Of a stretch of DNA of 37,640 bases, positions 1 through 20,131 are shown piece after piece. Source of the stretch: a virus. The stretch lies in the IMG/VR virus record IMGVR_UViG_3300021256_000065; one strand, written 5' to 3'. The translations under genes were made by a program, and so were the position numbers. Every line of letters starts with the position of its first letter. The stretch's first letter is position 1. The notes beneath the pieces are model-generated. The model saw nothing but the letters and a program-made list of their open reading frames with translations. It was not told where the DNA came from and searched no databases.

Positions 1-1
1 A

Positions 2-241
2 AGACGCAACGGCAGTGAGAGAAAACCCACCAAGACCCAGCAGGCAAATGAGGGTCTGAAAGAAGATATGTGGGCTTACGTTTCTGAGAATGGCGCAAAG
101 CGTGCCAATGAGGTCGCTGAACACTTCGCTATCAGCGGTCAGAAGGCTTCGGCTCTGCTGAACGCACTGGTCAAGGAAGGTCGCCTTGACAAGTTCACCG
201 AGAAGCGTGTGACCTACTTCAGGGTTGCTGAGGGGATATAA
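2..241 (+). CDS. C-terminal part of small winged-helix-like protein; paralog of 3530, 4479 and 18004 (partial at window edge)
   Basis: Open frame from the window start to TAA at 239-241. Translation contains KPTKTQ, as do the paralogs. Confidence 0.5.
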   Translation, partial: RRNGSERKPTKTQQANEGLKEDMWAYVSENGAKRANEVAEHFAISGQKASALLNALVKEGRLDKFTEKRVTYFRVAEGI

Positions 242-264
242 TCCCCTCACCGCTACCCTCAAGC

Positions 265-302
265 GTGCCGAATCGTGATTGAAATAAATCCGTAGATTGA
301 GG
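265..302. repeat. 38-nt conserved element, copy 1 (second copy at 4855-4892)
   Basis: GTGCCGAATCGTGATTGAAATAAATCCGTAGATTGAGG is repeated with 1 mismatch. It is flanked by the inverted repeat CCTCAA...TTGAGG. Confidence 0.6.
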
Positions 303-356
303 ACGCTTGGGGGGCGCGCCCGGGCATTCGTTAAAAAAATAACTTTTAAAAAAATG

Positions 357-385
357 TTTGACATTCCAATAGAAAAGGATTATAA
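357..385 (+). promoter_or_regulatory. sigma-70 consensus promoter (TTGACA-17-TATAAT)
   Basis: TTGACA at 357-362 and TATAAT at 380-385. An A/T-rich UP-like tract lies upstream. Confidence 0.6.
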
Positions 386-415
386 TGTAATCATAAAAGG
401 AAAGGAGATACAAAG

Positions 416-718
416 ATGTTCAAAGAAATTAATGGAAAAATTACAGTTACTGCTGTTTGCCCAATGTGCGGAGATGTTAAATTTTTTAACCTTCCTGCGG
501 ACGGATTCAAAGCTTGGCAGGGCGGTGAGCTTATTCAGCGAGCATTGCCTGACCTTGATGCTAATGACCGTGAGCGCCTTATCTCTGGCACCTGCCCCAC
601 CTGTTGGGACAAAATGTTCAGTTTTCCCGATGATGAGGAAGATGATGAACTTTTTGACGACTGCGATTATGAAATGGGTTTTGACCCTTACATGGGGTGC
701 TTTTCAGATGACTGCTGA
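416..718 (+). CDS. small zinc-ribbon protein (CPMCGD...CPTCW), acidic C-terminus
   Basis: ORF with RBS AAAGGAAAGGAG upstream. Ends with TGA. Confidence 0.6.
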   Translation: MFKEINGKITVTAVCPMCGDVKFFNLPADGFKAWQGGELIQRALPDLDANDRERLISGTCPTCWDKMFSFPDDEEDDELFDDCDYEMGFDPYMGCFSDDC

Positions 719-771
719 GGTCATCTGACCCGCCCGGGCGCCAAATTTTTTAAAAAGTTTTAAAAGAGGTA

Positions 772-800
772 TTGACAATCCAAAAGGAAAATGCTATATT
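772..800 (+). promoter_or_regulatory. sigma-70-like promoter driving an untranslated transcript
   Basis: TTGACA at 772-777, a 17-nt spacer and TATATT at 795-800. There is no ORF before the next promoter. Confidence 0.45.
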
Positions 801-806
801 GTTATT

Positions 807-895
807 GTCAAGGGGAGACGCCCAAAGGTGGAGTCTTCGAGAGAGAATAACTAGAGCGCGTAAAGCGTAGCAGGAAAACCTCGATTTTTAAAAAA
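807..895 (+). ncRNA. candidate small non-coding transcript
   Basis: Promoter with no RBS or ORF. A GC-rich segment is followed by CCTCGATTTTT. Confidence 0.25.
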
Positions 896-910
896 TTTTT
901 TAAAAACCTC

Positions 911-939
911 TTGACATTTAAACTTAATCTGTTATAATA
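911..939 (+). promoter_or_regulatory. sigma-70 consensus promoter
   Basis: TTGACA at 911-916 and TATAAT at 934-939. Confidence 0.6.
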
Positions 940-969
940 AAGTTATCAAATGAAAGAGAGGTATTTTAA

Positions 970-1194
970 ATGAATGAAGTTATTGAATTTTGTGGATATA
1001 CTTTAACTGATGATGAGGCTGAAGCTTGCATGGCTCTTTTGCGAGATATTTGGAAAAGAAAAAGACAAGAAAAGCTGATTCAAAAAGCTAAAACATCTAT
1101 TTCTTTTGAAATCTCTAATGCTATTAGTGAGATAGGATTAGAAGAAACTAAAAGAATTGTTAGAGAATTAAATCGTGAATTAAGAGAAAAGTAA
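970..1194 (+). CDS. hypothetical protein (74 aa)
   Basis: ORF with RBS AAAGAGAGG. Ends with TAA. Confidence 0.55.
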   Translation: MNEVIEFCGYTLTDDEAEACMALLRDIWKRKRQEKLIQKAKTSISFEISNAISEIGLEETKRIVRELNRELREK

Positions 1195-1198
1195 ATTT

Positions 1199-1224
1199 AA
1201 GGGGCACAGGCCCCTTTTCTCTTT
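1199..1224 (+). terminator. rho-independent terminator
   Basis: GGGGCACAGGCCCC hairpin followed by a T-run. Confidence 0.55.
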
Positions 1225-1278
1225 AACTCGCCCGGGCGCCCGTTAACAATTCTGTAACAAAATTAATAAATTGTTAAA

Positions 1279-1307
1279 TTGACAAAATAAAAAAGATTTA
1301 TTATAAT
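1279..1307 (+). promoter_or_regulatory. sigma-70 consensus promoter
   Basis: TTGACA at 1279-1284 and TATAAT at 1302-1307. Confidence 0.55.
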
Positions 1308-1333
1308 TGTTACAGAAAGAGAGGTAAAAAGCT

Positions 1334-1498
1334 ATGAAGAACACTTGGAAAATGGAAACATCTAAGGATTTTACCGCATGGGATTTAAATTGCCGAAATG
1401 TAGTCCCCCACAAAAAGCATCACAATGAACTTGAAAAAAAATTAAAAAGAAAAAATCGTAGAAAAGTAAAAATGACGCTTGACATCCTTTCAAGATGA
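1334..1498 (+). CDS. small basic protein (54 aa)
   Basis: ATG follows RBS AGAAAGAGAGG. The ORF is shorter than the 60-aa track cutoff. Confidence 0.35.
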   Translation: MKNTWKMETSKDFTAWDLNCRNVVPHKKHHNELEKKLKRKNRRKVKMTLDILSR

Positions 1499-1507
1499 TG
1501 CTATAAT
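1479..1507 (+). promoter_or_regulatory. sigma-70 consensus promoter
   Basis: TTGACA, a 17-nt spacer and TATAAT. Confidence 0.55.
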
Positions 1508-1537
1508 ACAATTACAAAAAGAAAGGGGAATAAAAAA

Positions 1538-1975
1538 ATGACAATTTGGTTTGACATGGATGGAACAATCGCTAATCTTTATGGAGTTCAGAACTGGCTT
1601 GACTATCTGATGGCAAGCGACCCCACCCCCTACGCAATCGCTAAACCGCTTCTGAGATTGAACGCACTGGCAAGAGTTCTAAATAATCTTCAGCGCAAGG
1701 GTTACAAAGTCGGAGTCATCAGCTGGCTTGCTAAAAACAGCACCGCCGATTATGACGAAGCGGTCACCAAAGCAAAAATTGATTGGTTGACTAAACATCT
1801 TACAAGTGTTGCTTTCGATGAAATCAACATCGTAAAATATGGAACTCCAAAACACCTGTTCGCCACCTGCGAAGCCGACATTCTTTTCGATGATGAGGAA
1901 AAGAACCGCAACGAATGGACAGGAAAAGCGTTCGATGTGAACAACATTCTTGAGGTACTGAAAGGGCTGGATTAA
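1538..1975 (+). CDS. HAD-superfamily 5'(3')-deoxyribonucleotidase-like hydrolase
   Basis: N-terminal FDMDGTIA matches the HAD motif I (DxDGT). The protein is 145 aa and ends with TAA. Confidence 0.55.
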   Translation: MTIWFDMDGTIANLYGVQNWLDYLMASDPTPYAIAKPLLRLNALARVLNNLQRKGYKVGVISWLAKNSTADYDEAVTKAKIDWLTKHLTSVAFDEINIVKYGTPKHLFATCEADILFDDEEKNRNEWTGKAFDVNNILEVLKGLD

Positions 1976-1993
1976 TCCAGCCCCAATTTTTTT
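1964..1993 (+). terminator. rho-independent terminator
   Basis: GGGCTGGATTAATCCAGCCC hairpin followed by a T-run. Confidence 0.55.
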
Positions 1994-2026
1994 GGCCCGG
2001 GCGCCCATTTTTTTTACTAAACCCCT

Positions 2027-2055
2027 TGACAAATCAAAGAATATCAATTATAATT
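2027..2055 (+). promoter_or_regulatory. sigma-70 consensus promoter
   Basis: TTGACA at 2027-2032 and TATAAT at 2050-2055. Confidence 0.6.
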
Positions 2056-2082
2056 GATTTATCAAAAGAAAGGAGCAAAAAA

Positions 2083-2454
2083 ATGAAAACCGCAAAATTA
2101 TCTCTCTTAATATTATTTTTCTTTTTTGCTATTGTTGTTATTTCATCCCCTGCAACTGCTGCCAAAAACGATTTGAAAATCATTAAAACTCTTTGCAAAA
2201 ATAAACCATTTAAAGTGGTTTCCCACAAAGATTACAAGAAAATAGCTCACAGGAAAAATAAGCCTTACATAATAGTTATAAAAATCGTTTCCCGCTCAAA
2301 AGGAAATTATGGTTTTACAAAAGAGGGATATTACATTTCCTATAACAAAAGAGTCAAAGTAGGAAAAAAAGTTACTAGTTACCTTATTTATAATCCAAAA
2401 AACAATAGTCATGATGATGTGCTATGGGTTGTAGATAATGGAAAATATAAATAA
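2083..2454 (+). CDS. small secreted protein with N-terminal signal peptide
   Basis: ATG after RBS AAAGGAGC. Hydrophobic N-terminus LSLLILFFFAIVVISSPATAA. Confidence 0.55.
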   Translation: MKTAKLSLLILFFFFAIVVISSPATAAKNDLKIIKTLCKNKPFKVVSHKDYKKIAHRKNKPYIIVIKIVSRSKGNYGFTKEGYYISYNKRVKVGKKVTSYLIYNPKNNSHDDVLWVVDNGKYK

Positions 2455-2462
2455 AAAACATG

Positions 2463-2492
2463 TTGACTTTTTTCTTAATCAATGATATAATC
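2463..2492 (+). promoter_or_regulatory. sigma-70-like promoter
   Basis: TTGACT, a spacer and TATAAT. Confidence 0.5.
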
Positions 2493-2515
2493 TAATCAAG
2501 AAAGGAGAGATGAAC

Positions 2516-2851
2516 ATGACAAACAAAGATAAGCTGATTGAAAAAATCATGAGAGAGTGTGAACAGGAAGGCGAGCCTGTCACAAGAGAAGAAGCTGAAG
2601 AGATGGCAGAGATGGAAATCAAAGCTAATGGCATCAAGCGGTACGAACAGTCCGACAAACCGCGGAAGACCGCTAAAAAGGAGCGGAAGGTGGACACCAC
2701 AAAGAAACGCCTGCTGATGGATTGCAAGGTGCTTCTTGAAGGTCTTGGTGCTGAGGTTCTCAATGTGAAAACTGAGACCGAAGTCACTTTCAACTTTGAG
2801 GGTGAAGAGTATAGCCTGAAACTGGTCAAGCATCGCCCCAAGAAGGAATAA
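2516..2851 (+). CDS. hypothetical protein; paralog of 4997-5389
   Basis: Shared KPRK..K.ERK...Y.L.L.K.RP.K architecture. RBS AAAGGAGAG. Confidence 0.55.
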   Translation: MTNKDKLIEKIMRECEQEGEPVTREEAEEMAEMEIKANGIKRYEQSDKPRKTAKKERKVDTTKKRLLMDCKVLLEGLGAEVLNVKTETEVTFNFEGEEYSLKLVKHRPKKE

Positions 2852-2867
2852 AAAGGAGGTGCAAAAA

Positions 2868-2957
2868 ATGATTATTATTAAATGGAATAGAAATTATATT
2901 ATGGAATGGCTATGGTTTAAATTTGTCCCAAAAGATTATTGTGATGGAGCAAAATAA
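2868..2957 (+). CDS. tiny ORF (29 aa)
   Basis: Strong RBS AAAAGGAGG 8 nt upstream of ATG. Confidence 0.3.
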   Translation: MIIIKWNRNYIMEWLWFKFVPKDYCDGAK

Positions 2958-2967
2958 TTTTGCTCCA

Positions 2968-3155
2968 TCTTCCAGCGGGGCGCGAGCCTTCGGTTCGCGC
3001 CGAAATTTCCATTGTACCACACCCCGCACTTTTTGTCAAGCAAAATCTGCAAAAAAACTACACAAAATTATATCCCAAAATTAGTGCAACATTCCGATGT
3101 TGACTTTCTAAAAAACTTATATTATAATATGTTTACAAGGTAAGGGAAGGGCAAC
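2968..3155. repeat. 190-bp direct repeat unit A, copy 1
   Basis: Direct repeat of about 85 percent identity with 4045-4232. Each copy holds a GC hairpin, a TTGACT-17-TATAAT promoter and a conserved transcript start, with no ORF. Confidence 0.7.
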
Positions 3156-3243
3156 ACAATCGAGTAGGATGGTCGGCAGAGCCTAGCGCCTTCTGATTAT
3201 TTGAATAGACAGATAGCCACTTCAAAAAAAATAAAAAAACTTG

Positions 3244-3272
3244 TTGACAAATAAAAAATCTTATGTTATAAT
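3244..3272 (+). promoter_or_regulatory. sigma-70 consensus promoter; inverted repeat CTTATGT / ACATAAG flanks the -10
   Basis: TTGACA at 3244-3249 and TATAAT at 3267-3272. Confidence 0.6.
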
Positions 3273-3277
3273 AAGTA

Positions 3278-3440
3278 CATAAGATAAAGAAAGGATTGAT
3301 ACAGCTGATGAGACTTAGGATGTAAGCGTTGGGGCGCAAACGCTATGACATAAAAGAGGCGCAGGGGTAGATACGCGGACGCGGACAGAGTGAGAAAGGC
3401 GGTGGAATTGGCCACCCACCGCTCCCCGAAAAGTTTTTAA
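3278..3440 (+). ncRNA. candidate small RNA (no plausible ORF)
   Basis: Lies between a consensus promoter and the hairpin GCGGTGG..CCACCGC plus CCCCGAAAAGTTTTT. The only ATG gives a 5-aa ORF. Confidence 0.35.
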
Positions 3441-3449
3441 AAAAAAGAC

Positions 3450-3478
3450 TTGACAACTAAATGAGGAACTGTTATAAT
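3450..3478 (+). promoter_or_regulatory. sigma-70 consensus promoter
   Basis: TTGACA at 3450-3455 and TATAAT at 3473-3478. Confidence 0.6.
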
Positions 3479-3529
3479 AAGCACATAAGAAAACAAAACA
3501 CCACTTAATCAAGAAAGGAAGTATCTACC

Positions 3530-3889
3530 ATGACGAAGAGAGAAATGTTCACCAAAATCCGCACTGCTGTTGCTAACGATGCTGAGATGGTCGCCTTCAT
3601 TGACCACGAAATCGAGTTGCTGAACCGCAAGTCCGCAACCCCGAAGAAGCCCACCAAGACGCAGGTGGAAAATGATGGTTTCAAGGCCGAAATCCTTGCG
3701 GCTCTTGCAGAGATGGACTCTCCTGTGACCATCAAGGAACTGTGCGGTGCTTGTGAGGCTCTCGCAGGTCTTTCCAATCAGCGTGTGACTCACATGCTGA
3801 CTGACCTCCGCAAGGATAGCAAGGTTGTTCGCACCTACGTTAAGAAGGTTGCCTACTTTGCCCTTGGCTCTGAGGAAGAGGGGGAGTAA
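3530..3889 (+). CDS. small protein, winged-helix-like paralog family
   Basis: ORF with RBS AAGAAAGGAAG. Similar to 4479, 18004 and 2-241. Confidence 0.6.
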   Translation: MTKREMFTKIRTAVANDAEMVAFIDHEIELLNRKSATPKKPTKTQVENDGFKAEILAALAEMDSPVTIKELCGACEALAGLSNQRVTHMLTDLRKDSKVVRTYVKKVAYFALGSEEEGE

Positions 3890-3903
3890 TCCCCCAACCC
3901 TTT

Positions 3904-3976
3904 GAGGGTGTAGCTCAGTTGGTAGAGCATTAGACTTTTAATCTAAGTGCCGAGGGTTCAATTCCCTCCACCCTCA
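3904..3976 (+). tRNA. tRNA-Lys (anticodon TTT)
   Basis: Cloverleaf GAGGGTG/CACCCTC. Anticodon loop CTTTTAA, T-loop TTCAATT. Confidence 0.8.
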
Positions 3977-4010
3977 TTTTACTATCTTATTTTGTTCCTC
4001 CTTTCTTTGA

Positions 4011-4045
4011 AAAGACACCATCTTTTTAGATGGTGTCTTTTTCAT
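4011..4045 (+). terminator. rho-independent terminator, probably bidirectional
   Basis: 12-bp stem AAAGACACCATC/GATGGTGTCTTT flanked by T and A runs. Confidence 0.6.
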
Positions 4046-4232
4046 TTGGCGCCCCGCGGCCGACCGGTCGCGGGGCGAAACTTCCATTATATCATACTCT
4101 GGGCTTTTTGTCAAGTGAAAATCTGCACAAACATCTCACCGCAAAATTCCCAAAATTAGTGCAATATTCCGACATTGACTTTTTCAAAAAAATTTATTAT
4201 AATATATTTACAAGGTAAGGGAAGTCAACCGC
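4045..4232. repeat. 190-bp direct repeat unit A, copy 2
   Basis: See copy 1. Promoter TTGACT at 4175-4180 and TATAAT at 4198-4203. Confidence 0.7.
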
Positions 4233-4262
4233 TAAAAAAACTTAAAAAGTTAAAAAAAGTTC

Positions 4263-4291
4263 TTGACAAAACAAAAGCCTTGTGCTATAAT
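4263..4291 (+). promoter_or_regulatory. sigma-70 consensus promoter driving a short untranslated transcript
   Basis: TTGACA at 4263-4268 and TATAAT at 4286-4291. Confidence 0.55.
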
Positions 4292-4295
4292 AATC

Positions 4296-4378
4296 TTGTT
4301 GGGTGGTAGAAGCAACATAAAATAAAAGATACCCGTGGAGTTGATGGTACGATAGTCTCCGAAAAAAAACCATCAAAA
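4296..4378 (+). ncRNA. candidate small RNA
   Basis: No RBS or ORF between this promoter and the next. Ends with CTCCGAAAAAAAACC. Confidence 0.25.
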
Positions 4379-4392
4379 AATTAAAAAATCTA

Positions 4393-4421
4393 TTGACAAA
4401 TCAAAAATCTTATGTTAAAAT
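4393..4421 (+). promoter_or_regulatory. sigma-70 promoter with inverted repeat around the -10
   Basis: TTGACA, a 17-nt spacer and TAAAAT. CTTATGT...ACATAAG surrounds the -10. Confidence 0.55.
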
Positions 4422-4478
4422 AAGTACATAAGATAAAACAAAAACAAATCAATCAATCAAAAGAAAGAGGTGTTTATT

Positions 4479-4820
4479 ATGACAAAGAAAGAAATGTTCT
4501 CCAAAATCCGTACTGCTGTTGCTGATAACGCTGAAATGGTTGCTTTCATCGACCATGAGATTGAACTGCTGGAGAAGAAGTCCAGTTCCCCGAAAAAGCC
4601 GACCAAGACTCAGCTTGAGAATGACGGCTTCAAGGCGGAGATTGTCGCCTACCTCACGGATGCTGATGCTCCGAAGAACATCAAGGAACTTCAGGCCGAG
4701 GTCGCTTCTCTTAGCGGTCTGTCCAATCAGCGTATCACTCACATGCTGACAGACCTTGTCAAGGCGGAAACCCTTGTCAAGGAGTACGTGAAGAAAACTC
4801 CGTACTACTCTGTTGCCTGA
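4479..4820 (+). CDS. small protein, winged-helix-like paralog family
   Basis: RBS AGAGG 9 nt upstream. About 60 percent identical at the N-terminus to the 3530 product. Confidence 0.6.
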   Translation: MTKKEMFSKIRTAVADNAEMVAFIDHEIELLEKKSSSPKKPTKTQLENDGFKAEIVAYLTDADAPKNIKELQAEVASLSGLSNQRITHMLTDLVKAETLVKEYVKKTPYYSVA

Positions 4821-4854
4821 TGTGTGGGGCGAAAGCCCCCACACGCTCCAAAAT

Positions 4855-4892
4855 GTGCCGAATCGAGATTGAAATAAATCCGTAGATTGAGG
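4855..4892. repeat. 38-nt conserved element, copy 2
   Basis: See 265-302. Confidence 0.6.
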
Positions 4893-4936
4893 GTATTTTG
4901 GGGCGGGCCCGGGCCCCAAAAAATTTCAAAAAAGGG

Positions 4937-4965
4937 GTTGACAGATAAAAATAACTATGTTATAA
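4937..4965 (+). promoter_or_regulatory. sigma-70 consensus promoter
   Basis: TTGACA at 4937-4942 and TATAAT at 4960-4965. Confidence 0.6.
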
Positions 4966-4996
4966 TTTAACCATCAAGAGAAAGGAAGTACAAAAC

Positions 4997-5389
4997 ATGA
5001 CCTACAATTTGAATGGTAAGAACATCCGTATCCCCGATACTGAAATCACCAAAAGCATGAAACTGTTAAATATTTCTCAAGATGAAGCCGTTCAGATGTG
5101 GCTTGAAGATGAAGGCTATCTTGAAAATGAAGTGGTTGAGGAACTGACCGCAAAAGCCAAGGAAAACAAGGTCAACCATGAAGCAAAAGCCAACAAACCC
5201 CGCAAATCTGTTAAAAGAGAGCGGAAACCTGATGAAGAAAAGGAAAATCTTATCGAAATCCTCGCAAATTGTCTGAAAAATGCGGGATTTGACACAGAAA
5301 TCACCAATAAAAGCAAGATTATTCAGTTTAATGTGGGTGAAAACCACTACAAACTTGATTTAATCAAGCAAAGACCGCCAAAAAAGTGA
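4997..5389 (+). CDS. hypothetical protein; paralog of 2516-2851
   Basis: ORF with RBS AGAAAGGAAG. Confidence 0.55.
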   Translation: MTYNLNGKNIRIPDTEITKSMKLLNISQDEAVQMWLEDEGYLENEVVEELTAKAKENKVNHEAKANKPRKSVKRERKPDEEKENLIEILANCLKNAGFDTEITNKSKIIQFNVGENHYKLDLIKQRPPKK

Positions 5390-5391
5390 AA

Positions 5392-5418
5392 AAAGGGACT
5401 AAAAAGTCCCTTTTTTTC
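5392..5418 (+). terminator. rho-independent terminator
   Basis: AAGGGACT/AGTCCCTT hairpin followed by a T-run. Confidence 0.6.
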
Positions 5419-5486
5419 GCACAATTTGCCCGGGCGCCCGACAAAATGCACAATTTTAAAGCCGCATTTTTGTGTAATTTGCTATG

Positions 5487-5515
5487 TTGACTTTTTTATT
5501 TCTCTCTGCTATAAT
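5487..5515 (+). promoter_or_regulatory. sigma-70-like promoter
   Basis: TTGACT, a 17-nt spacer and TATAAT. Confidence 0.55.
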
Positions 5516-5547
5516 TGCATTATCAAATGAAAGAGAGGAAACCTAAA

Positions 5548-6261
5548 ATGAGCAATTATGTACTGATTATTGACACTGAAACCGCAAATTCTGTTGAACA
5601 GCCTATTCCCTATGATTTTGGATGGGCGGTTGTTGATACTATTACTGGAGAAATCATGGAAACCGCCTCTTATATGTGTGCGGAAATCTTCCTTGACAAA
5701 GAACTGATGTCACAAGCTTATTTTGCTGAAAAAATCCCGATGTATTGGGAAGAAATCAAACAAGGCAAACGTAAAATCACAAATCTTCTTACAATCCGTA
5801 AGGCACTCTGGAATTGTCTGAAAACTTATGATATTTCAGACATCGGCGCATACAATATGGGATTTGACAAGCGTGCTTGCAACAATGATATACGTTATGT
5901 GACAGCTTCCTTCCTGCGGTGGTTTTTCCCCTACAATGTTAGATTTTTCTGTATTTGGCACATGGCTTGCACAAGTTTTCTGAATACTTCAGATTATGTA
6001 AATTTTGCGACAACTCATGGTTTTGTGTCTGAAGCAGGAAATATTCAGACTTCTGCTGAATGCGCTTACCGCTATCTGAAAAATGACCCCTCTTTTGTGG
6101 AAAGTCACACAGGTCTGGAAGATGTGAGAATTGAAGCTGAAATCTTCATGAACTGTCTGAAAACAGGAGATGAAAACATGAAAGACTCAATTTACACCGC
6201 ATGTTGGAGAAATGTTCAGAAAATTGCTAAACAGATGATGCTTGAGGAAGTGTTCGCTTGA
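5548..6261 (+). CDS. DEDDh-family 3'-5' exonuclease (DnaQ/RNase T-like)
   Basis: LIIDTETAN (exo motif I) and HTGLEDVRIEAEIF (motif III, H...D). RBS AAAGAGAGG. Confidence 0.55.
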   Translation: MSNYVLIIDTETANSVEQPIPYDFGWAVVDTITGEIMETASYMCAEIFLDKELMSQAYFAEKIPMYWEEIKQGKRKITNLLTIRKALWNCLKTYDISDIGAYNMGFDKRACNNDIRYVTASFLRWFFPYNVRFFCIWHMACTSFLNTSDYVNFATTHGFVSEAGNIQTSAECAYRYLKNDPSFVESHTGLEDVRIEAEIFMNCLKTGDENMKDSIYTACWRNVQKIAKQMMLEEVFA

Positions 6262-6324
6262 ACACTTCCCCCAATTGTCTGAAAATTCGCGGGGCCCGGG
6301 CGCAAAAATTTTTTTCAAAACCGC

Positions 6325-6353
6325 TTGACAAAAAAGACCTTATTTGATATAAT
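6325..6353 (+). promoter_or_regulatory. sigma-70 consensus promoter
   Basis: TTGACA at 6325-6330 and TATAAT at 6348-6353. Confidence 0.6.
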
Positions 6354-6382
6354 TACATCATCAAGAGAAAGGAGATAAACAA

Positions 6383-6526
6383 ATGTACTTAGTAATTGCT
6401 GAAAACAAAACTGTAAGAACTTGTGACTCCTACAAAAAAGCCTATTGCACCATGGTTTGGCTTCGTTCTATCGCTAACCGCAAAGATGTTATCATTGTCA
6501 AAGATGGTAAAGTGTTAAGGGGGTAG
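6383..6526 (+). CDS. small protein (47 aa) ending in TAG; TAA lies 4 codons downstream
   Basis: RBS AGAGAAAGGAG. If TAG is read through, the protein gains 3 residues before TAA. Confidence 0.35.
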   Translation: MYLVIAENKTVRTCDSYKKAYCTMVWLRSIANRKDVIIVKDGKVLRG

Positions 6527-6530
6527 AAAA

Positions 6531-6728
6531 ATGGATAATGTCGTTCTTGAAATGTTGAGAGAATTGGCGGAGACTTCCGCAGAAGCCTACAAGAAAAATG
6601 CAAAAGCATTTTTTGATGATTACAAAAATTATGCGGATGCTTCTGATATCGCCTACATTTTTTCAAAGGCATTCCGTGATATGTTTTGGAACCTTGAAAA
6701 TGACATTAGAAAAGAAAGGAAATATTAA
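6531..6728 (+). CDS. hypothetical protein (65 aa)
   Basis: ORF with RBS AGGGGG. Confidence 0.45.
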   Translation: MDNVVLEMLRELAETSAEAYKKNAKAFFDDYKNYADASDIAYIFSKAFRDMFWNLENDIRKERKY

Positions 6729-6729
6729 A

Positions 6730-6918
6730 ATGTGGGAAGAAAATGCAAAATACGTTGAACAGGTTTATGGTTGTTATGTAGATTGGGAAGAAAGGTTTTA
6801 TGAATGTCCTGACTGTGGGGAGCCTGTCTATGAATGTGACTGGTCAAACGATGAATTGTGCGATTTCCTTTGCCCTATTTGTGAATTTAGAGAAGAAGAA
6901 GGAGAGGAAGATTTCTAA
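6730..6918 (+). CDS. small zinc-ribbon protein (CPDCG...CPIC)
   Basis: ATG after AAAGGAAATATTAAA. ORF ends TAA. Confidence 0.5.
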   Translation: MWEENAKYVEQVYGCYVDWEERFYECPDCGEPVYECDWSNDELCDFLCPICEFREEEGEEDF

Positions 6919-7073
6919 TGAATTGGGAAGAAAAAATTAAAGAAGGAATGAAACTTATTAAAGAAGGATGTTCAGAACAAACAGAATGGCGGAAATGCTA
7001 TGATTGCTCATTTAACACTTTCTGTGAACTTATGGAAGAAAATAATTATGAAGTTCCTAGTGAAGAATTTTAA
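6918..7073 (+). CDS. small Cys-containing protein (51 aa)
   Basis: ATG overlaps the upstream TAA (TAATG). Followed by a terminator. Confidence 0.4.
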   Translation: MNWEEKIKEGMKLIKEGCSEQTEWRKCYDCSFNTFCELMEENNYEVPSEEF

Positions 7074-7074
7074 A

Positions 7075-7100
7075 ATAAGGCGGAAACGCCTTATTTTTTA
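7075..7100 (+). terminator. rho-independent terminator
   Basis: TAAGGCGGAAACGCCTTA hairpin followed by a T-run. Confidence 0.6.
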
Positions 7101-7139
7101 TAATCATAATTAGATTAATCTAATTAAAATTAGTTAGGA

Positions 7140-7330
7140 AAATGCCGGGCCGCGGGCACTCGTGCCCAGGCCCGTTTCCCCCTCACGCGTACCATATGGA
7201 CTTTTTTTCTGGAACCTTGGCCTATATGGACCCGTCGCGTGGATTCCCGAAATGCGAACCCCGCATATGCATCTCCCTGCTGGAGCCCTACGCGTAACGC
7301 TGGTCATATGGCCGCGTTTCGTGGATCCTT
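7140..7330. other. GC-rich island with repeated CATATGG and ACGCGT motifs; function unknown
   Basis: About 60 percent GC in a genome of about 33 percent GC. Four (C/T)ATATGG-like repeats and two MluI-like palindromes. No credible ORF. Confidence 0.4.
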
Positions 7331-7334
7331 ACCT

Positions 7335-7362
7335 TGAAATCTTAAAAAATTTTTGTTATAAT
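7335..7362 (+). promoter_or_regulatory. promoter: TTGAAA plus extended -10 (TGtTATAAT), first of two tandem copies
   Basis: CTTGAAATCTTAAAAAATTTTTGTTATAAT. Confidence 0.5.
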
Positions 7363-7394
7363 ATTAAAAAAAGGCTTTGGGAATCCGCGCCCAC

Positions 7395-7423
7395 TTGAAA
7401 ACCTAAAAAATTTTTGTTATAAT
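7395..7423 (+). promoter_or_regulatory. promoter, second tandem copy
   Basis: CTTGAAAACCTAAAAAATTTTTGTTATAAT. Confidence 0.5.
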
Positions 7424-7989: not shown

Positions 7990-8330
7990 TCCACCACCAC
8001 TGCCTATTTTTATCTATTTTTACTTATTTATTTCTATCTATATCTATTCAATCTATCTATTTATACTTATTTTGTCTATCTAGCCTTTATTTATACCTAT
8101 TTAATTTATTCATGTTTATTTATATTCATTTATACCCATTCTTGCTATTTTCTAACCTATTCCCATTTTAACTTATCTCTGCCTATTTATCCATTTCCGC
8201 CATTCATACTTATTTATATCTATCCCTAACTCTATTCTATCCTTCTTATCATTTATACCCATCTCTATTTGTCATTTAATCTATTCAGCTTATCTTACCC
8301 ATCTCATCCATCACCACTTTACTCATTTCT
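7990..8330. repeat. low-complexity, G-depleted plus strand with degenerate CTATTTAT, TCTATC and TTATAC repeats over about 340 bp
   Basis: The plus strand has almost no G. Short pyrimidine-rich motifs recur. Confidence 0.6.
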
Positions 8331-8589
8331 ACGTATCTCCCGCCGTCAATTCCTTAAACTTCTCCAGCGCTTTCCTGCTATTAAATATATTAAAATCTTC
8401 TCTAAACCACTCCAAACTATCATAGCTTAAACAAATTTTCTCCCCTATATCACTAATTAAAATCAACATAAATCCATCATTCAAAAATATTACCCTATCA
8501 ATAGCAAAGGGTTGATTATCTATCATTCCCAACTTATTACCTAATTTCTTTGCTTGTATATACTGCATGTTCATTCGCTCACAACTCAC
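8329..8589 (-). CDS. hypothetical protein (86 aa); terminal TAG, then 1 codon, then TGA
   Basis: ORF on the minus strand. Confidence 0.4.
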   Translation of the reverse strand: MSCERMNMQYIQAKKLGNKLGMIDNQPFAIDRVIFLNDGFMLILISDIGEKICLSYDSLEWFREDFNIFNSRKALEKFKELTAGDT

Positions 8590-14009: not shown

Positions 14010-14259
14010 ACTAATCAAGATACTCCTGCCCTACATCCTGGGCGTGGTTTGTACAGCTATCATGTTCCGACCTATGAAGAACTGGCAGGAAGGCTATAAT
14101 GCCGCAAAACAGTTCTATGGTGATATGGAATCGGGCTTTGACCGAGGCTGGGAGACTGCAAAGAAGGTTTTTAAAGACTATGAAAAAGGCTTCGGCGATG
14201 GGTTTGAGGCAGGATGGATAACAGCGGAGGAACAAAAGAAACAAGATGAGCAAACTTGA
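14002..14259 (+). CDS. small membrane-anchored protein
   Basis: RBS GAGGGTGAACAAA. TM segment ILLPYILGVVCTAIMF. Confidence 0.45.
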   Translation: MIELIKILLPYILGVVCTAIMFRPMKNWQEGYNAAKQFYGDMESGFDRGWETAKKVFKDYEKGFGDGFEAGWITAEEQKKQDEQT

Positions 14260-14413
14260 CGACACAATTACAGATGTAGCTTATGTTCTTAACATCGTAG
14301 ATATGGCTTACATTCTTGATGCTCTTATGGCATACAGAAACATCATTCAAGCAGGGAACTGCAATGATTGTAAAGTGCAAAAAGAATGTGAGGTAAAACC
14401 AAAGTTGGGATAG
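14246..14413 (+). CDS. small protein ending in TAG; TAG read-through would extend it 19 codons to TGA
   Basis: ATG overlaps the upstream gene. Confidence 0.3.
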   Translation: MSKLDDTITDVAYVLNIVDMAYILDALMAYRNIIQAGNCNDCKVQKECEVKPKLG

Positions 14414-14537
14414 TTAGTTAGATACAACTGTCCATTTTACCATGGAGATGAATAGAATGAGACTAATTGATGCTACGTAGCATGATGCAATGTGGTGGTA
14501 AGAAGAAAGGTTGCGCTAAAGCGCAACTTTCTCCTAT

Positions 14538-14759: not shown

Positions 14760-14793
14760 ATATAAATTAATAATAAAAAGGAGAATAATAGTA

Positions 14794-15994: not shown

Positions 15995-16096
15995 TATAAA
16001 TAATCAATGAAGGCATATTAAAAATCCTTCATTGATTATTATTAAAAAATATATTATAATATATATATAATAAAAAAGAGGAAGGAAATCACCATT

Positions 16097-16786: not shown

Positions 16787-16801
16787 TAGAAAGGAGAAAA
16801 T

Positions 16802-17341: not shown

Positions 17342-17369
17342 ACATATAAATCTTCTTTTGATTTTTAAT

Positions 17370-17401
17370 AAAAATTTTGTTATAATATATACATAAGATA
17401 A
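17370..17401 (+). promoter_or_regulatory. extended -10 promoter (TGtTATAAT) with conserved leader ATATACATAAGATAAAG
   Basis: One of at least 12 copies of this promoter and leader module. Confidence 0.5.
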
Positions 17402-17412
17402 AGAAAGGAGAA

Positions 17413-17667
17413 ATGAATATGACAGACATATGGTATTATGAATATCAAGTAAAAACCTGGAATGAGATTGACCACAAAGAAGAAATCTTTTCTGGTGTGG
17501 TTCCTGCTGAATCTATTGTTGAAGCAGTAAAGAGATTGGATGATTACTATGGAACTGATATCATGGAAATTCAGATGTTGAAACCTATTTTTGAAGGTAC
17601 TGTATTTGAATTTCAGTGTGTAATGGAAGATCCAGAATTTGATTATGTCATTAATAAAAAAGCATAA
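17413..17667 (+). CDS. hypothetical protein (84 aa)
   Basis: ORF with RBS AAAGGAGAAATGAAT. Confidence 0.5.
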   Translation: MNMTDIWYYEYQVKTWNEIDHKEEIFSGVVPAESIVEAVKRLDDYYGTDIMEIQMLKPIFEGTVFEFQCVMEDPEFDYVINKKA

Positions 17668-17680
17668 GGAGGCGGCAATA

Positions 17681-17893
17681 ATGAAATTCCCAGAGTTATT
17701 CTTCTACGCGGAAGCCGAAGGTTTACTTCCAACTCGAGCTGGCAAAATTAATGCAGTTATCAATGACATTAAAAATTATCCTGGTTCTGAAATTGAATTT
17801 TCAGAGTTTGAAAGTATTCTTAATCATTATGGATTAAGATATGAAGATTTAACAGATAGGGAAATCCGCCATATCAATGCTAGTATCCGTTGA
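17681..17893 (+). CDS. hypothetical protein (70 aa)
   Basis: RBS AAGGAGG before the ATG. Confidence 0.45.
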   Translation: MKFPELFFYAEAEGLLPTRAGKINAVINDIKNYPGSEIEFSEFESILNHYGLRYEDLTDREIRHINASIR

Positions 17894-18003
17894 AAATGGC
17901 AACAAAGAGACCGCCGCTTGAAAATCTTAAAAATTTTTGATATAATAAATATGTAAGATAAAGAAAGAACAAATTGAAAAAAGAGAAAAAAGGAGAATTT
18001 ACT

Positions 18004-18408
18004 ATGGAAAACACCACAAAGAAAACTAAGGCTATGTATTTTGCAGAACTTCGCGAGATGGTTGCAGGCTTGGTCGATAGAGAGGATCAGGATGAGCTTC
18101 TTGAGTTTATTGACAAGCAGATCGAGGCTATCGAAAAGCGGAAGGTAGCTGCCGCAAATAGAGCGGAAAAGAAGAAAGCTGAGTCCGATGCTTTGACTGA
18201 TGCTATTCTGGCACAGATCGGAGAAGAACTCATTACTGTGGATGAGATTGTTGTGGCTCTTGATGATGAAGAGGTTACTCGCAACAAGGTCACCGCTCGT
18301 CTTGGTAAGCTGGTAAAGGCTGGCGTTATCACCAAGGAAACCGTAAAGGTTGATGGTAACAAGAGAATGGCCTATAGGCTTGCCGCAGCCGCTGATGATG
18401 AAGAGTAA
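18004..18408 (+). CDS. small protein, winged-helix-like paralog family (4th member)
   Basis: RBS AAAAGGAGAA. FIDKQIEAIEKRK parallels FIDHEIELLNRK in the paralogs. Confidence 0.5.
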   Translation: MENTTKKTKAMYFAELREMVAGLVDREDQDELLEFIDKQIEAIEKRKVAAANRAEKKKAESDALTDAILAQIGEELITVDEIVVALDDEEVTRNKVTARLGKLVKAGVITKETVKVDGNKRMAYRLAAAADDEE

Positions 18409-18485
18409 TTCATCAAAAGTGGTATAATAAAAATAAGGGAAGATAAAACTATCTTCCCTTTTTATTTTGGCATAGGAGGATAAAC

Positions 18486-19271
18486 ATGTTTTGTTTAGAT
18501 TATTATCCTTCTCAAAAGTATCTATAGGACGCGGATGAATTTAAAATTAAATATCGTCCATCTGATCGTACATTAGAAGATTTCTTAAATAAATATATTA
18601 ACAAATCTATCGTGATAGATGTATCAGATTCTTTTGAGTAGGTTGATGCACAGTTATTAAAAGGATTATCTGATAAATATCAAAATGTTAAGATTATTTT
18701 TAATTTTAATAAAAAAGATTATTTATCAAGAGCCGAAAAATATAACATTCCACATTTTTTTATCAATCCAATTACTTCAATAGATCAACTGTGGGGATTG
18801 ATAAAATATAATCCAACTGATATGTATATATGTAGTGAATTAGGTTTTTCATTAGATAAAATTAGTAGGCTGTTACATGAAAATAACATTAAAGTTAGGG
18901 TTTTTCCAAATGTTTGTCAATCAACTTTTTTTTCAGAAATTCCTAGTATAAAAACATTTTTTATTAGACCAGAAGATATTCCCGTATATAGTTAGTATGT
19001 AGATGTTTTTGAATTAGTCACAAATGAAAAAACTCAACGAATTTTATTTAAGATTTATAAACAAAATAAATGGATTGGACAATTAAAAGATATTATTCCT
19101 ACTTTTAAAGATTAGCTTGATAATAAATATTTATTAAAAAATTTTGGAGAACTTAGAAGTAAATGCGGCAAGCGGTGTATGTACACCTTTGGCGGCTGTA
19201 ATATATGCGATAGATTCATAGAAATTGTAAATCTTATTGAAGAAAGTAAAAATGCGTCAGAAAATCAGGAT
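18486..19271 (+). CDS. hypothetical protein with 4 in-frame TAG codons and a C-terminal CGKRC...GGCNIC motif
   Basis: RBS AGGAGG. A single frame of about 260 codons interrupted only by TAG. Ends TGA. Confidence 0.45.
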
Positions 19272-19328
19272 TGATTTTTTTGAAAATTTTTGATATAATA
19301 TGTATATAAAATAAAGAGGAGAAATAAT

Positions 19329-19646
19329 ATGGCTGCAAAAGGAAGTATTTTGAAACAAGAGGTTATGGATAAAATCCTTGCTGCATTCCCTGGAAGTTTT
19401 CTTTATAATGATGGAAAAGAAGTTCGTATTAACGGGCTTGAAAATGGAGTTCCTATTCAAATTAAGGTGACTTTAACAGCTGCTAAAGTTGCGGTTGAAG
19501 GTGGCGATGACACGGCATTACCTGGAGAAAAGGCTGCGGCAACCGCAGATGTAGAGTCTGTAAGAACGAATGAAAAAATTCCTCAGGAGCCAACCGCAGA
19601 AGAAAAAGAGCGATTGACCATGTTGTTAAATAAACTAGGACTATAA
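19329..19646 (+). CDS. hypothetical protein (105 aa)
   Basis: ORF with RBS AAGAGGAGAAA. Confidence 0.5.
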   Translation: MAAKGSILKQEVMDKILAAFPGSFLYNDGKEVRINGLENGVPIQIKVTLTAAKVAVEGGDDTALPGEKAAATADVESVRTNEKIPQEPTAEEKERLTMLLNKLGL

Positions 19647-19656
19647 GGAGAATAAT

Positions 19657-19956
19657 ATGGGAGTAGGAGTGCATCTTTATCAAATGACTTGTTGGGAATC
19701 AGTTGGTCGTTGGCATGTAAATGATGTAAAAAATCTTGGCGGCCGCTCCGCCAAATGGTATACTCCTATGCGTATTCTTAACATTTCTATTGAAGAGTAT
19801 ATTAATCTTTTGTTAAATACTTTTCATGCACAGGGAGTGTATTATTATGCTCCCACAGATTATTTAGCTTTTTATTTTACAAAAGAAAAAGATGCTAAAG
19901 CATTTTGTTCGTATGTTAATAAGATCGCGCGACACAACAACTATTGTTGTGCATAA
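19657..19956 (+). CDS. hypothetical protein (99 aa)
   Basis: ORF with RBS AAGGAGAATAAT. Confidence 0.5.
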   Translation: MGVGVHLYQMTCWESVGRWHVNDVKNLGGRSAKWYTPMRILNISIEEYINLLLNTFHAQGVYYYAPTDYLAFYFTKEKDAKAFCSYVNKIARHNNYCCA

Positions 19957-20131
19957 GTATATACTTTGGAAGTTGAGTGGCGTGCCTCCCCAGTCATGAA
20001 TGGAGTTGAGGACCGGAAGGTGCAATCAGAGTTGAGGCGCTCAATACACTCTGTTTAAAAATACCGAACAAAAGGCTAAAGTAGGGTCTATCAAACCAGG
20101 GCCTTATATAAATCTGTTAGGATAGACATAA

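What the first reader, a model, noticed from the sequence alone, without database searches (positions are those of the whole stretch)
1..20000. TAG is excluded from early and middle genes but sits at the termini of a few, suggesting temporal code switching
Early and middle genes end with TAA or TGA and carry no internal TAG. Three of them end with TAG followed within 2-19 codons by TAA or TGA: 6383-6526, 14246-14413 and 8329-8589. If the suppressor tRNA is made only after infection starts, TAG would terminate these genes early and be read through later, giving C-terminally extended isoforms. The split between a TAG-free early proteome and a TAG-rich late proteome would act as a translational timing lock.
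Basis: inference. Interest (0 to 1): 0.6.

Follow-up and report, generated by a model that had tools for sequence, protein, structure and literature searches.

The report
Phage reads TAG as glutamate
This is part of a large rumen phage that reads the stop codon TAG as an amino acid, mostly in its tail and lysis genes; that early-versus-late pattern is already known from other phages, but here the amino acid looks like glutamate, not the glutamine reported for phages so far.

Summary
The three TAG-ended ORFs exist at the stated coordinates. In-frame TAG is 4.6 times more frequent in the late module than in 1-21.2 kb (p=4e-8); same-composition control codons differ 0.8-1.7 times and off-frame TAG 1.5 times. 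But 1-20000 is not TAG-free. Four genes there (18486-19274, 10069-10476, 10812-11048, 10627-10815) carry ten in-frame TAGs. Three are conserved full-length in 18-21 related phages; the fourth has only a near-identical relative. The "backup stop within 2-19 codons" is chance: ordinary stops here have a second in-frame stop at a median of 10 codons. The timing-lock idea is the published Borges et al. model and cannot be tested from sequence. It is supported indirectly: ten perfect sigma-70 promoters drive the TAG-free 1-7.9 kb module, and a sigma factor gene precedes the tRNA array holding tRNA(CUA). The unexpected result is the meaning of TAG. In this lineage TAG falls in glutamate-conserved alignment columns and almost never in glutamine-conserved ones (102:2). 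A sister lineage shows the reverse (1:55; p=3e-39). One TAG replaces the catalytic glutamate of the lysin's GH73 domain. Database translations put Q there by convention.

The parts
358..7423 (+). Cluster of sigma-70 consensus promoters: ten perfect TTGACA-N16/17-TATAAT and eight 11/12 matches. They mark the early module (genes from 2 to 7892), which has no convincing internal TAG.
   Evidence: promoter scan: 115 sites against 69.8 expected; the 12/12 sites are nearly all here. (1.1 TAG per 1000 codons, and both TAGs are terminal or in a doubtful ORF).
6383..6538 (+). Small ORF ending in TAG (6524-6526), then K-N-G and TAA. The TAG lies between an AGGGGG ribosome-binding site and the ATG (6531) of the next gene.
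   Evidence: The only relative is L001 (96% identical), with the same arrangement.
8323..8589 (-). ORF ending in TAG (8329-8331), then K and TGA. Orthologues in L001, L010, L013, L017 and L020 end with TAA/TGA 3-5 codons before this TAG.
10069..11048 (-). They lie downstream of a sigma-70-like promoter at 11352-11324.
   Evidence: conserved in 18, 1 and 21 loci; TAG aligns mostly with GAA/GAT..
14246..14470 (+). ORF ending in TAG (14411-14413). The frame continues 18 codons, including a second TAG, to TGA. A terminator-like hairpin lies at 14507-14530.
18486..19274 (+). 262-codon gene of unknown function with 4 in-frame TAG (codons 14, 52, 170, 210). It sits in the middle block, just after a hairpin at 18435-18460.
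   Evidence: near full-length orthologues in 21 loci, 54-98% identity. (no PHROG or Pfam match).
20295..21209 (+). Phage sigma-70 family factor with no TAG, immediately upstream of the tRNA array.
   Evidence: phrog_351, E=1e-94.
20132..26602 (+). Array of 16 tRNA genes, mostly with anticodons that read A-ending codons. Sigma-70-like promoters lie at 21282, 21417 and 22433.
23180..23253 (+). tRNA with anticodon CUA, the TAG decoder. It has a G1.U72 first pair, A73 and a long D-loop. A tRNA(CUA) occurs in 15 of the 23 related loci L001-L023.
   Evidence: (68.3 bits).
23763..23835 (+). tRNA with anticodon UUA (would read TAA and TAG). Found only in the window and in contig IMGVR_UViG_3300021399_000007 (loci L001 and L140). 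Its role is unknown, because TAA ends almost all late genes.
   Evidence: (51.3 bits).
26953..27525 (+). Secreted SH3-domain protein with 4 TAG.
28200..29711 (+). TROVE-type RNA-binding protein with 0 TAG in 503 codons. It is a TAG-free gene inside the late region.
   Evidence: phrog_850, E=4e-121.
29982..34396 (+). Three late genes: 29982-30461 (7 TAG), 30492-32369 (9) and 32372-34396 (16; baseplate/tail protein with DUF5048).
34443..36515 (-). Lysin with Amidase_2 and GH73 glucosaminidase domains, 7 TAG. The TAG at 35805-35807 replaces the catalytic glutamate.
36569..37639 (-). SASA-type carbohydrate esterase (probable tail fibre or receptor-destroying enzyme), 1 TAG. The gene runs off the window end.

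Best explanation
The window is about 38 kb of a roughly 134 kb virulent-type phage from rumen metagenomes, distantly related to large phages of Bacillota. The phage reassigns TAG from stop to sense.

Shown:
- TAG is in frame in conserved full-length genes.
- TAG is concentrated in tail, baseplate and lysis genes plus a handful of other genes.
- TAG is absent from the 1-7.9 kb block of small genes, each behind a consensus host-type promoter.
- The phage carries a tRNA(CUA) in a tRNA array that follows its own sigma factor gene.
- Comparative analysis indicates that in this lineage TAG stands for glutamate, while a sister lineage uses it for glutamine.

Inferred:
- Early genes are transcribed by host RNA polymerase and translated with the host's standard code.
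- Once the phage tRNA array is expressed, tRNA(CUA) competes with release factor 1. TAG-containing messages, including a lysin whose catalytic residue is a TAG, can then be completed.
- TAG therefore acts as an extra translational check on late and lytic functions, as proposed by Borges et al.
- The suppressor is probably charged with glutamate by the host glutamyl-tRNA synthetase. It probably escapes conversion to glutamine because it lacks the features of tRNA-Gln (a weak first base pair and G73).

The three TAG-ended ORFs are most simply ordinary genes that end at TAG, or have a sense TAG a few codons from their end. Read-through would add 2, 4 or 19 residues. Nothing suggests that these tails are selected.
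For: Recoding:
- Coding density rises from 0.56 to 0.97 in 29721-37640 when TAG is read through.
- There are 44 in-frame TAGs in 8 late genes.
- Orthologues are full length across the TAG positions.

Module bias: the in-frame ratio is 4.6 (p=4e-8), against 1.7 or less for control codons and 1.5 for off-frame TAG.

Temporal anatomy:
- Ten perfect and eight 11/12 sigma-70 promoters lie in 358-7423.
- A TTGATT-N17-TATAAT variant occurs at 11382-21417.
- The late module has nothing as good as either of these two promoter classes.
- A sigma factor gene is present.
- tRNA(CUA) occurs in 15 of the 23 related loci.

Glutamate:
- The TAG at 35805-35807 aligns with the catalytic glutamate of GH73 enzymes (FlgJ 'AQAALETGWG'). 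The nine more distant phage lysins recovered (57-73% identical) have GAA or GAG there.
- In 120 database homologues of the tail protein, 10 of 16 TAG columns are dominated by E, for example E116/Q2 and E59/D53.
- In a codon-level alignment of 44 orthologues, TAG occurs in 19 of 19 E-dominated columns and 8 of 10 Q-dominated columns, but in 10% or less of any other class.
- The genomes separate cleanly. The window's group has 69 TAGs in E columns and 0 in Q columns. The other group has 0 and 26.
- Five other gene families give 33:2 and 1:29. Combined: 102:2 against 1:55, p=2.6e-39.
- Masking real codons as a calibration shows that the TAG profile resembles GAG, not CAG.

tRNA:
- The suppressors of the window's lineage have G1-C72, G1.U72 or C1-G72 with A73 or C73.
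- The suppressors of phAss-1, published as TAG to Gln, have U1.C72 or A1-U72 with G73.
Against: - No expression data exist, so the timing is inferred from promoter consensus matches only.
- The suppressor sits behind sigma-70-like promoters (22433-22461). It could therefore be made from the start of infection.
- TAG-bearing genes at 10.0-11.0 kb also lie behind a sigma-70-like promoter.
- Some late-region genes have no TAG.
- GC content and codon usage differ between modules (0.40 against 0.33), so part of the TAG difference is compositional.
- For glutamate: the evidence is comparative only. In the window itself one TAG lies in a Q-dominated column.
- In the 18486-19274 family, glutamate-group genomes have TAG in a few Q-rich columns.
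- A profile test of tRNA body similarity was inconclusive. The best matches were Asp, Ile and Glu.
- No release factor or synthetase gene was seen in the window.
Confidence: 0.7

Rival explanations
1. The TAG-poor and TAG-rich mosaic is a by-product of gene history and composition, not a timing device. Small early genes turn over quickly, are GC-richer and use host-like codons. Old, AT-rich, conserved genes have had time to accumulate TAG by drift once a suppressor existed.
For: - GC is 0.40 in 1-7.9 kb against 0.33 in late genes, and codon preferences differ.
- Off-frame TAG is also 1.5 times rarer in early genes.
- Many early genes have few or no orthologues in the 23 loci.
- TAG-free genes occur in the late region, and TAG-bearing genes lie behind a sigma-70-like promoter.
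Against: - The in-frame bias (4.6 times) is about three times larger than any composition control.
- 512 of 667 unique genes in the early and middle regions of the clade lack TAG.
- TAG sits on a catalytic residue of a lysin.
- Other recoded phage families show the same convergence on lysis and structural genes.
Confidence: 0.2
2. The three TAG-ended genes are built so that TAG terminates early in infection and is read through later, giving functional C-terminally extended isoforms. Nearby TAA/TGA codons would serve as selected backup stops.
For: - The three ORFs exist.
- In relatives, TAG sits exactly at the orthologous stop position of some middle genes, with a TAA/TGA 3-6 codons later.
- Near-terminal TAGs are slightly over-represented in the clade: 22 genes with a first TAG in the last 10 codons, against 14.6 expected.
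Against: - The downstream stop distances (2, 4 and 19 codons) match the control distribution (median 10; 72% within 19).
- The extensions would be 2, 4 and 19 residues.
- Orthologues of 8329-8589 end before the TAG.
- No independent orthologues exist to test conservation of the other two tails.
Confidence: 0.07
3. TAG means glutamine, as in NCBI table 15. The glutamate signal arises only because E-to-Q replacements are tolerated at surface positions.
For: - All published phage TAG reassignments are to Gln.
- Database gene calls translate these TAGs as Q.
- A few TAGs in glutamate-group genomes fall in Q-rich columns.
Against: - If TAG were Gln, the window's lineage should use TAG in Q-conserved columns at least as often as the sister lineage does. 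It does so 2 times against 102 in E columns, while the sister lineage shows 55 against 1.
- TAG replaces the catalytic Glu of GH73, which every distinct lysin orthologue recovered encodes as GAA or GAG.
- Some TAG columns are mixed E/D columns.
- The suppressor is unlike the phages' own tRNA-Gln genes.
Confidence: 0.08

Closest known systems
TAG-recoded ('code 15') phages and the code-switch model (Borges et al. 2021/2022; crAss-like, Lak, Agate and others; Mgcod block-wise codes)
   Same: TAG is in frame mainly in structural and lysis genes. Early genes are compatible with the standard code. The phage encodes tRNA(CUA). The host presumably uses the standard code. The proposed function is a translational gate on late genes.
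   Different: The amino acid inferred here is glutamate, not glutamine. TAG-bearing genes are scattered in the non-structural half. No release factor or synthetase gene was seen in the window.
Phage phAss-1 / proposed Phassvirus (OQ749652, 136 kb, human gut; Babkin et al. 2023)
   Same: Similar genome size and a large tRNA set with suppressor tRNA(CUA). TAG occurs in about 28% of its ORFs. It is a distant homologue: 29% identity to a Gln-group orthologue (L062) of the window's baseplate/tail protein.
   Different: The authors infer TAG to Gln. Its suppressors look Gln-like (weak 1-72 pair, G73). The window's suppressor does not.
Eukaryotic codes with TAG read as Glu (NCBI tables 30 and 31: peritrich ciliates, Blastocrithidia); from general knowledge
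   Same: TAG has the same new meaning.
   Different: Those are nuclear codes in which TAA is also reassigned. Here TAA remains the main terminator, and the reassignment is carried by a virus inside a standard-code cell.
SPO1-type and other large Bacillota phages with an early host-takeover module and phage sigma factors; T4-type tRNA arrays matched to late codon usage (general knowledge)
   Same: Dense strong host-type promoters in front of many small early genes. A phage sigma factor. A tRNA array whose anticodons fit late-gene codon usage.
   Different: Those phages use the standard code. Relatedness here is only distant (33% identity to Bacillus phage SP-10 for one protein).

Membership tests
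Stop-codon-recoded phage (TAG read as sense) | Coding density and ORF length recover when TAG is not a stop | tested here: met
   0.56 rises to 0.97 in 29721-37640. Recoding TGA or TAA gives no gain.
Stop-codon-recoded phage (TAG read as sense) | In-frame TAG inside genes whose orthologues are full length, with sense codons at those positions | tested here: met
Stop-codon-recoded phage (TAG read as sense) | Phage-encoded suppressor tRNA with anticodon CUA | tested here: met
   23180-23253, 68.3 bits to Rfam tRNA. A tRNA(CUA) is present in 15 of the 23 related loci.
NCBI translation table 15 (TAG = Gln) | TAG aligns with glutamine in homologues | tested here: not met
   The window's lineage has 102 TAGs in E-dominated columns and 2 in Q-dominated columns. 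The sister lineage has 1 and 55. One TAG replaces the catalytic Glu of GH73.
Temporal code switch (Borges model) | Early genes are translatable with the standard code; structural and lysis genes need read-through | tested here: met
   The 1-7.9 kb module behind consensus sigma-70 promoters has no internal TAG. Tail and lysin genes have 1-16 each. Exceptions: four TAG-bearing genes in 10-19.3 kb and two TAG-free genes in the late region.
Temporal code switch (Borges model) | Suppressor activity appears after early translation and before late protein synthesis | not testable with these tools
   Only promoter-like sites are available. The suppressor lies behind a sigma-70-like site at 22433-22461.
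Programmed read-through giving extended isoforms | The extension is conserved as coding sequence and the distance to the next stop departs from chance | tested here: not met
   Distances of 2, 4 and 19 codons against a control median of 10. Orthologues of 8329-8589 end earlier. The other two ORFs lack divergent orthologues.
TAA+TAG reassigned codes (tables 30 and 31 type) | TAA is also read as sense | tested here: not met
   TAA ends 7 of 8 late genes, and recoding TAA does not improve gene calls. A tRNA(UUA) gene is nevertheless present.

The most novel reading that the evidence does not exclude
Within one family of large Bacillota-type phages, the reassigned stop codon TAG has two different meanings. 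It is glutamate in the rumen lineage that includes this window, and glutamine in a sister lineage. Non-recoded relatives lie in between. The glutamate reading would come from a suppressor tRNA(CUA) that is charged by the host glutamyl-tRNA synthetase but lacks the tRNA-Gln features needed for amidation. If so, current 'code 15' annotations put the wrong residue at every TAG in these phages, including the catalytic residue of a lysin. In the same genomes TAG would still end a few early and middle genes, so its meaning would depend on when a message is translated.
Probability: 0.7. Interest if true: 0.8.

Novelty: new variant of a known kind. Interest (0 to 1): 0.6.

Why it matters
The early-versus-late split itself is ordinary for recoded phages. 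It adds one more clade to a published model.

What would matter is the amino acid. All phage TAG reassignments reported so far are to glutamine, and gene callers hard-code that. A glutamate reading would have four consequences:
- It would be a new viral genetic code.
- It would show that the meaning of a captured stop codon can differ between close relatives.
- It would point to the host's Glu/Gln charging pathway as the factor that decides the outcome.
- It would correct thousands of database protein sequences.

The case also offers a clean test: peptides spanning TAG positions differ by 0.98 Da between Glu and Gln.

Tried and rejected
- Megablast of both halves of the window against GenBank phages found nothing except a tRNA.
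- PHROG and Pfam scans gave no function for most early and middle genes, nor for the TAG-bearing gene 18486-19274.
- An all-against-all codon comparison of raw ORFs was contaminated by non-coding frames (many TAG-TGG pairs). I replaced it with gene-restricted alignments.
- The first ortholog-column tally on early and middle genes alone could not separate E from Q.
- Picking the longest ORF per locus for the tail gene gave wrong genes. I redid it from the match coordinates.
- I tried to obtain suppressor tRNAs of the glutamine-group genomes. A profile search with gene 15104-15994 found no such genomes. The 10 kb flanks around their tail gene hold no tRNAs. I used phAss-1 instead.
- tRNA identity could not be settled by pairwise similarity or by isotype profiles built from the phages' own tRNAs. 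The profiles gave best hits to Asp, Ile and Glu.
- I considered TAG = Asp and rejected it: TAG occurs in 2 of 31 D-dominated columns against 19 of 19 E-dominated columns.
- I considered TAA or TGA recoding in the window and rejected it.
- I considered a zinc-finger reading of the 14246-14470 extension (CxxC...CP). I dropped it because L001 has R in place of the first Cys.

Full report
WHAT THE WINDOW IS

ARAGORN finds 17 tRNA genes. Sixteen form an array at 20132-26602, including a tRNA with anticodon CUA (23180-23253) and one with UUA (23762-23836). Rfam's tRNA model scores them at 68.3 and 51.3 bits against a threshold of 29.

Megablast finds no close relative among GenBank phages. IMG/VR holds 23 related loci from contigs of up to 144 kb, several of them 130-144 kb, with 66-98% identity on gene 15104-15994. 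The closest contig is IMGVR_UViG_3300021399_000007, 133,873 bp.

Distant protein matches are to large phages of Bacillota: Bacillus SP-10, and Enterococcus and Enterocloster phages and phAss-1.

I called genes with a simple codon-usage scorer. Stops were set to TAA/TGA only, or to other sets for comparison. These calls are my own and approximate. Weak calls were dropped unless conserved.

CHECKING THE OBSERVATION

TAG is a sense codon in the late region. Coding density in 29721-37640 is 0.56 with the standard code and 0.97 when TAG is read through. Recoding TGA or TAA gives no gain.

The late genes and their TAG counts are:
- 26953-27525: 4 TAG
- 29982-30461: 7
- 30492-32369: 9
- 32372-34396: 16
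- 34443-36515, minus strand, a lysin with Amidase_2 and GH73 domains: 7
- 36569-37639, minus strand, a SASA esterase: 1

The module bias survives a composition control:
- In-frame TAG is 15/5150 codons in 1-21.2 kb against 44/3288 in the late module (ratio 4.6, p=4.4e-8).
- The sense codons made of the same three bases give ratios of 0.8-1.7.
- Off-frame TAG gives 1.4-1.5.

The range 1-20000 is not TAG-free.
- 18486-19274 has four in-frame TAGs. Its orthologues align over nearly its whole length (at least residues 1-254 of 262) in 21 of 23 loci, at 54-98% identity, with sense codons opposite the TAGs.
- 10069-10476 (3 TAG) is conserved in 18 loci and 10812-11048 (2 TAG) in 21 loci.
- 10627-10815 has one TAG and a match only in L001.

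The minus-strand block at 8.3-11.3 kb has 10.2 TAG per 1000 codons, close to the late module's 13.4.

Conversely, 28200-29711 (503 codons, TROVE-type RNA-binding protein) and 27882-28181 in the late region have none.

The 'TAA or TGA within 2-19 codons' is what chance gives. After the true stop of 54 window genes, the next in-frame TAA/TGA is at a median of 10 codons, and 72% lie within 19.

For 8329-8589, five orthologues end 3-5 codons before the TAG. For the other two ORFs only a 96-97% identical relative exists, so conservation of the tails cannot be tested. Read-through would add 2, 4 or 19 residues.

IS TAG EVER A TERMINATOR IN THESE GENOMES?

Across 667 unique genes called in the 23 loci plus the window, 512 have no TAG. 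Genes whose first TAG lies in the last 10 codons are slightly over-represented: 22 against 14.6 expected.

In two families TAG sits exactly where many orthologues have their TAA/TGA:
- the L003, L009 and L012 orthologues of window gene 19329-19646 (16 orthologues stop there);
- L023 1694-2095 (11 orthologues stop there).

So TAG appears to serve as the last codon of some middle genes in genomes that elsewhere read it as sense.

ANATOMY RELEVANT TO TIMING

The plus strand of 358-7423 carries ten perfect TTGACA-N16/17-TATAAT sites and eight 11/12 sites, most with an extended -10 TG. They are spaced so that most of the small genes have one a short way upstream.

A variant, TTGATT-N17-TATAAT, recurs at 11382, 12279, 16032, 17358, 19271, 20227, 21282 and 21417. 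An 11/12 site at 22433-22461 precedes the tRNA group that includes tRNA(CUA). Within the late module there is one 11/12 site, at 27530-27558 just downstream of the first TAG-bearing late gene (26953-27525), and several 10/12 matches, but no perfect site and no TTGATT-variant site.

A sigma-70 family gene (20295-21209, phrog_351, E=1e-94) lies just before the array.

Early genes use more G/C-ending codons per 1000 codons (AAG 39.9, GAG 25.3, TAC 16.3) than late genes (14.0, 8.8, 7.6). The array's anticodons mostly read A-ending codons.

This fits an early block read by host machinery and late genes matched to phage tRNAs. These are consensus matches, not measurements. The suppressor's own promoter looks host-type, so it need not be late.

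WHAT AMINO ACID TAG STANDS FOR

This came out of the checking and was not part of the finding.

1. The catalytic residue. The TAG at 35805-35807 aligns with the catalytic glutamate of GH73 enzymes in solved structures: 'AQAALETGWG' in FlgJ. One of the aligned entries (3k3t) has A at this one position in an otherwise identical segment. The nine more distant lysins recovered (57-73% identical to the query segment) encode GAA or GAG there, while the window and its two near-identical relatives have TAG.

2. Database homologues. In 120 database homologues of tail protein 32372-34396, 10 of the 16 TAG columns are dominated by E, for example E116/Q2, E115/Q2, E113/Q6 and E59/D53. P0001 is 95% identical to the window's protein and has Q at all 16 positions. 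Those Qs are evidently TAG codons translated by the code-15 convention.

3. Codon-level alignment. I fetched the DNA of 66 orthologues and aligned 44 unique ones codon by codon. TAG occurs in 19 of 19 columns dominated by E and in 8 of 10 dominated by Q, but in 10% or less of any other class (2 of 31 for D).
   - One group of genomes (the window, L038, L040, L044-L049, L056, L058, L060, L066, L067, L069) has 69 TAGs in E columns and none in Q columns.
   - Another group (L061, L062, L072, L083, L084, L087, L089) has none in E columns and 26 in Q columns.
   - Two genomes are mixed at low counts.

4. Independent gene families. Five other late-gene families give 33:2 and 1:29. Combined: 102:2 against 1:55, Fisher p=2.6e-39.

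5. Calibration. Treating real codons as if unknown, the TAG profile resembles GAG (E, then D and K) and not CAG (Q, then K and E).

If TAG were glutamine everywhere, the window's lineage would have to avoid TAG precisely at glutamine-conserved positions, which makes no sense. I therefore conclude that TAG is most likely glutamate in this lineage.

Caveats on the glutamate reading:
- The evidence is comparative only.
- One window TAG lies in a Q-dominated column.
- A few Q-rich columns in the 18486-19274 family carry TAG in glutamate-group genomes.

THE SUPPRESSOR tRNA

Suppressors of the window's lineage have G1-C72, G1.U72 or C1-G72, with A73 or C73 and a long D-loop. The same genomes carry ordinary tRNA-Gln genes with U1-A72 and G73, which look quite different.

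The two suppressors I read from phAss-1, a phage published as TAG to Gln, have U1.C72 or A1-U72 with G73.

From general knowledge, not tested here: Bacillota lack GlnRS. They make Gln-tRNA by charging tRNA-Gln with Glu and amidating it, and the amidotransferase recognises the U1-A72 pair and D-loop size. A CUA tRNA charged by GluRS without those features would keep its Glu.

A profile test using the phages' own tRNAs was inconclusive on isotype. Glu scored above Gln for 9 of 12 suppressors of the window's lineage, and Gln scored above Glu for both phAss-1 suppressors.

COMPARISON WITH WHAT IS KNOWN

The early standard-code and late recoded arrangement, and its reading as a gate on late and lytic genes, is the model of Borges et al.. 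Block-wise code use is also the premise of Mgcod. Phage TAG reassignment is reported only as glutamine in the papers I could search. Phrase searches for a glutamate reassignment in phages found none. A search of a held library cannot prove absence.

VERDICT

- Its new element, extended isoforms with backup stops, is not supported.
- The window is a new member of the recoded-phage kind with one apparently new property, TAG read as glutamate. That property makes it a new variant and worth an experimental check.

Noticed in passing
window 23763-23835; identical copy in L001 19361-19435 and L140 2383-2457: A tRNA gene with anticodon UUA (51.3 bits to the Rfam tRNA model). It has a U1.U72 mismatch, G73 and a very AT-rich body. 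It is 100% identical in the closest relative and absent from the other loci. It would read TAA (and TAG by wobble), yet TAA ends 7 of 8 late genes and recoding TAA does not improve gene calls.
   Followed up: partly
window 358-7423, plus strand: Ten perfect and eight 11/12 matches to TTGACA-N16/17-TATAAT, most with an extended -10 TG, so that most of the small genes have one a short way upstream. This density of consensus promoters is far above the shuffled expectation and resembles host-takeover modules of large Bacillota phages.
   Followed up: partly
window 11382, 12279, 16032, 17358, 19271, 20227, 21282, 21417 (plus strand): A recurring promoter-like variant, TTGATT-N17-TATAAT. It occurs in front of middle-block genes, the sigma factor gene and the start of the tRNA array, and may be a distinct promoter class.
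   Followed up: no
window 28200-29711 and 24129-24240: A TROVE-type RNA-binding protein gene (phrog_850, E=4e-121) with no TAG lies next to the tRNA array. A weak Y-RNA-like (YrlA) match of 30.5 bits, below the family threshold of 69, overlaps tRNA-Asn/Ser. This may be a Ro-like protein with a partner RNA.
   Followed up: no
window 3530-3889 and 4479-4820; also 2516-2851 and 4997-5389: Pairs of early genes encode clearly paralogous small proteins (for example MTKREMFTKIRTAVANDAEMVAFIDHEIELL... against MTKKEMFSKIRTAVADNAEMVAFIDHEIELL...). 18004-18408 has a similar layout.
   Followed up: no
proteins P0001 and others: Public protein collections hold full-length versions of the recoded tail protein with Q at every TAG position (P0001 has Q at all 16). 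If TAG is glutamate, these database sequences carry systematic E-to-Q errors.
   Followed up: yes
loci L064, L065, L068, L070, L071, L075, L081, L094 (tail-gene orthologues): In these relatives the frame of the tail gene hits TAA or TGA after only 5-33 codons, although tblastn matches nearly the whole protein. This hints at a different recoded stop (TGA or TAA), frameshifts or insertions in those genomes.
   Followed up: no
L010 18648-18722, L013 13780-13854, L020 18501-18575: ARAGORN reports tRNAs with a four-base anticodon 'atca' (an eight-base loop containing TCA) next to the CUA suppressor. These may be TGA-reading or frameshift-type tRNAs.
   Followed up: no
window 22164-22230 and 25305-25395: A tRNA-like element (37.9 bits) that ARAGORN does not call, lying inside ORF 22112-22348. 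Also a 91-base tRNA with an undetermined anticodon (42.1 bits), possibly carrying an insertion.
   Followed up: no
It has TAG at codon 59, then two codons and TAA. One orthologue ends at the TAG position.
   Followed up: partly
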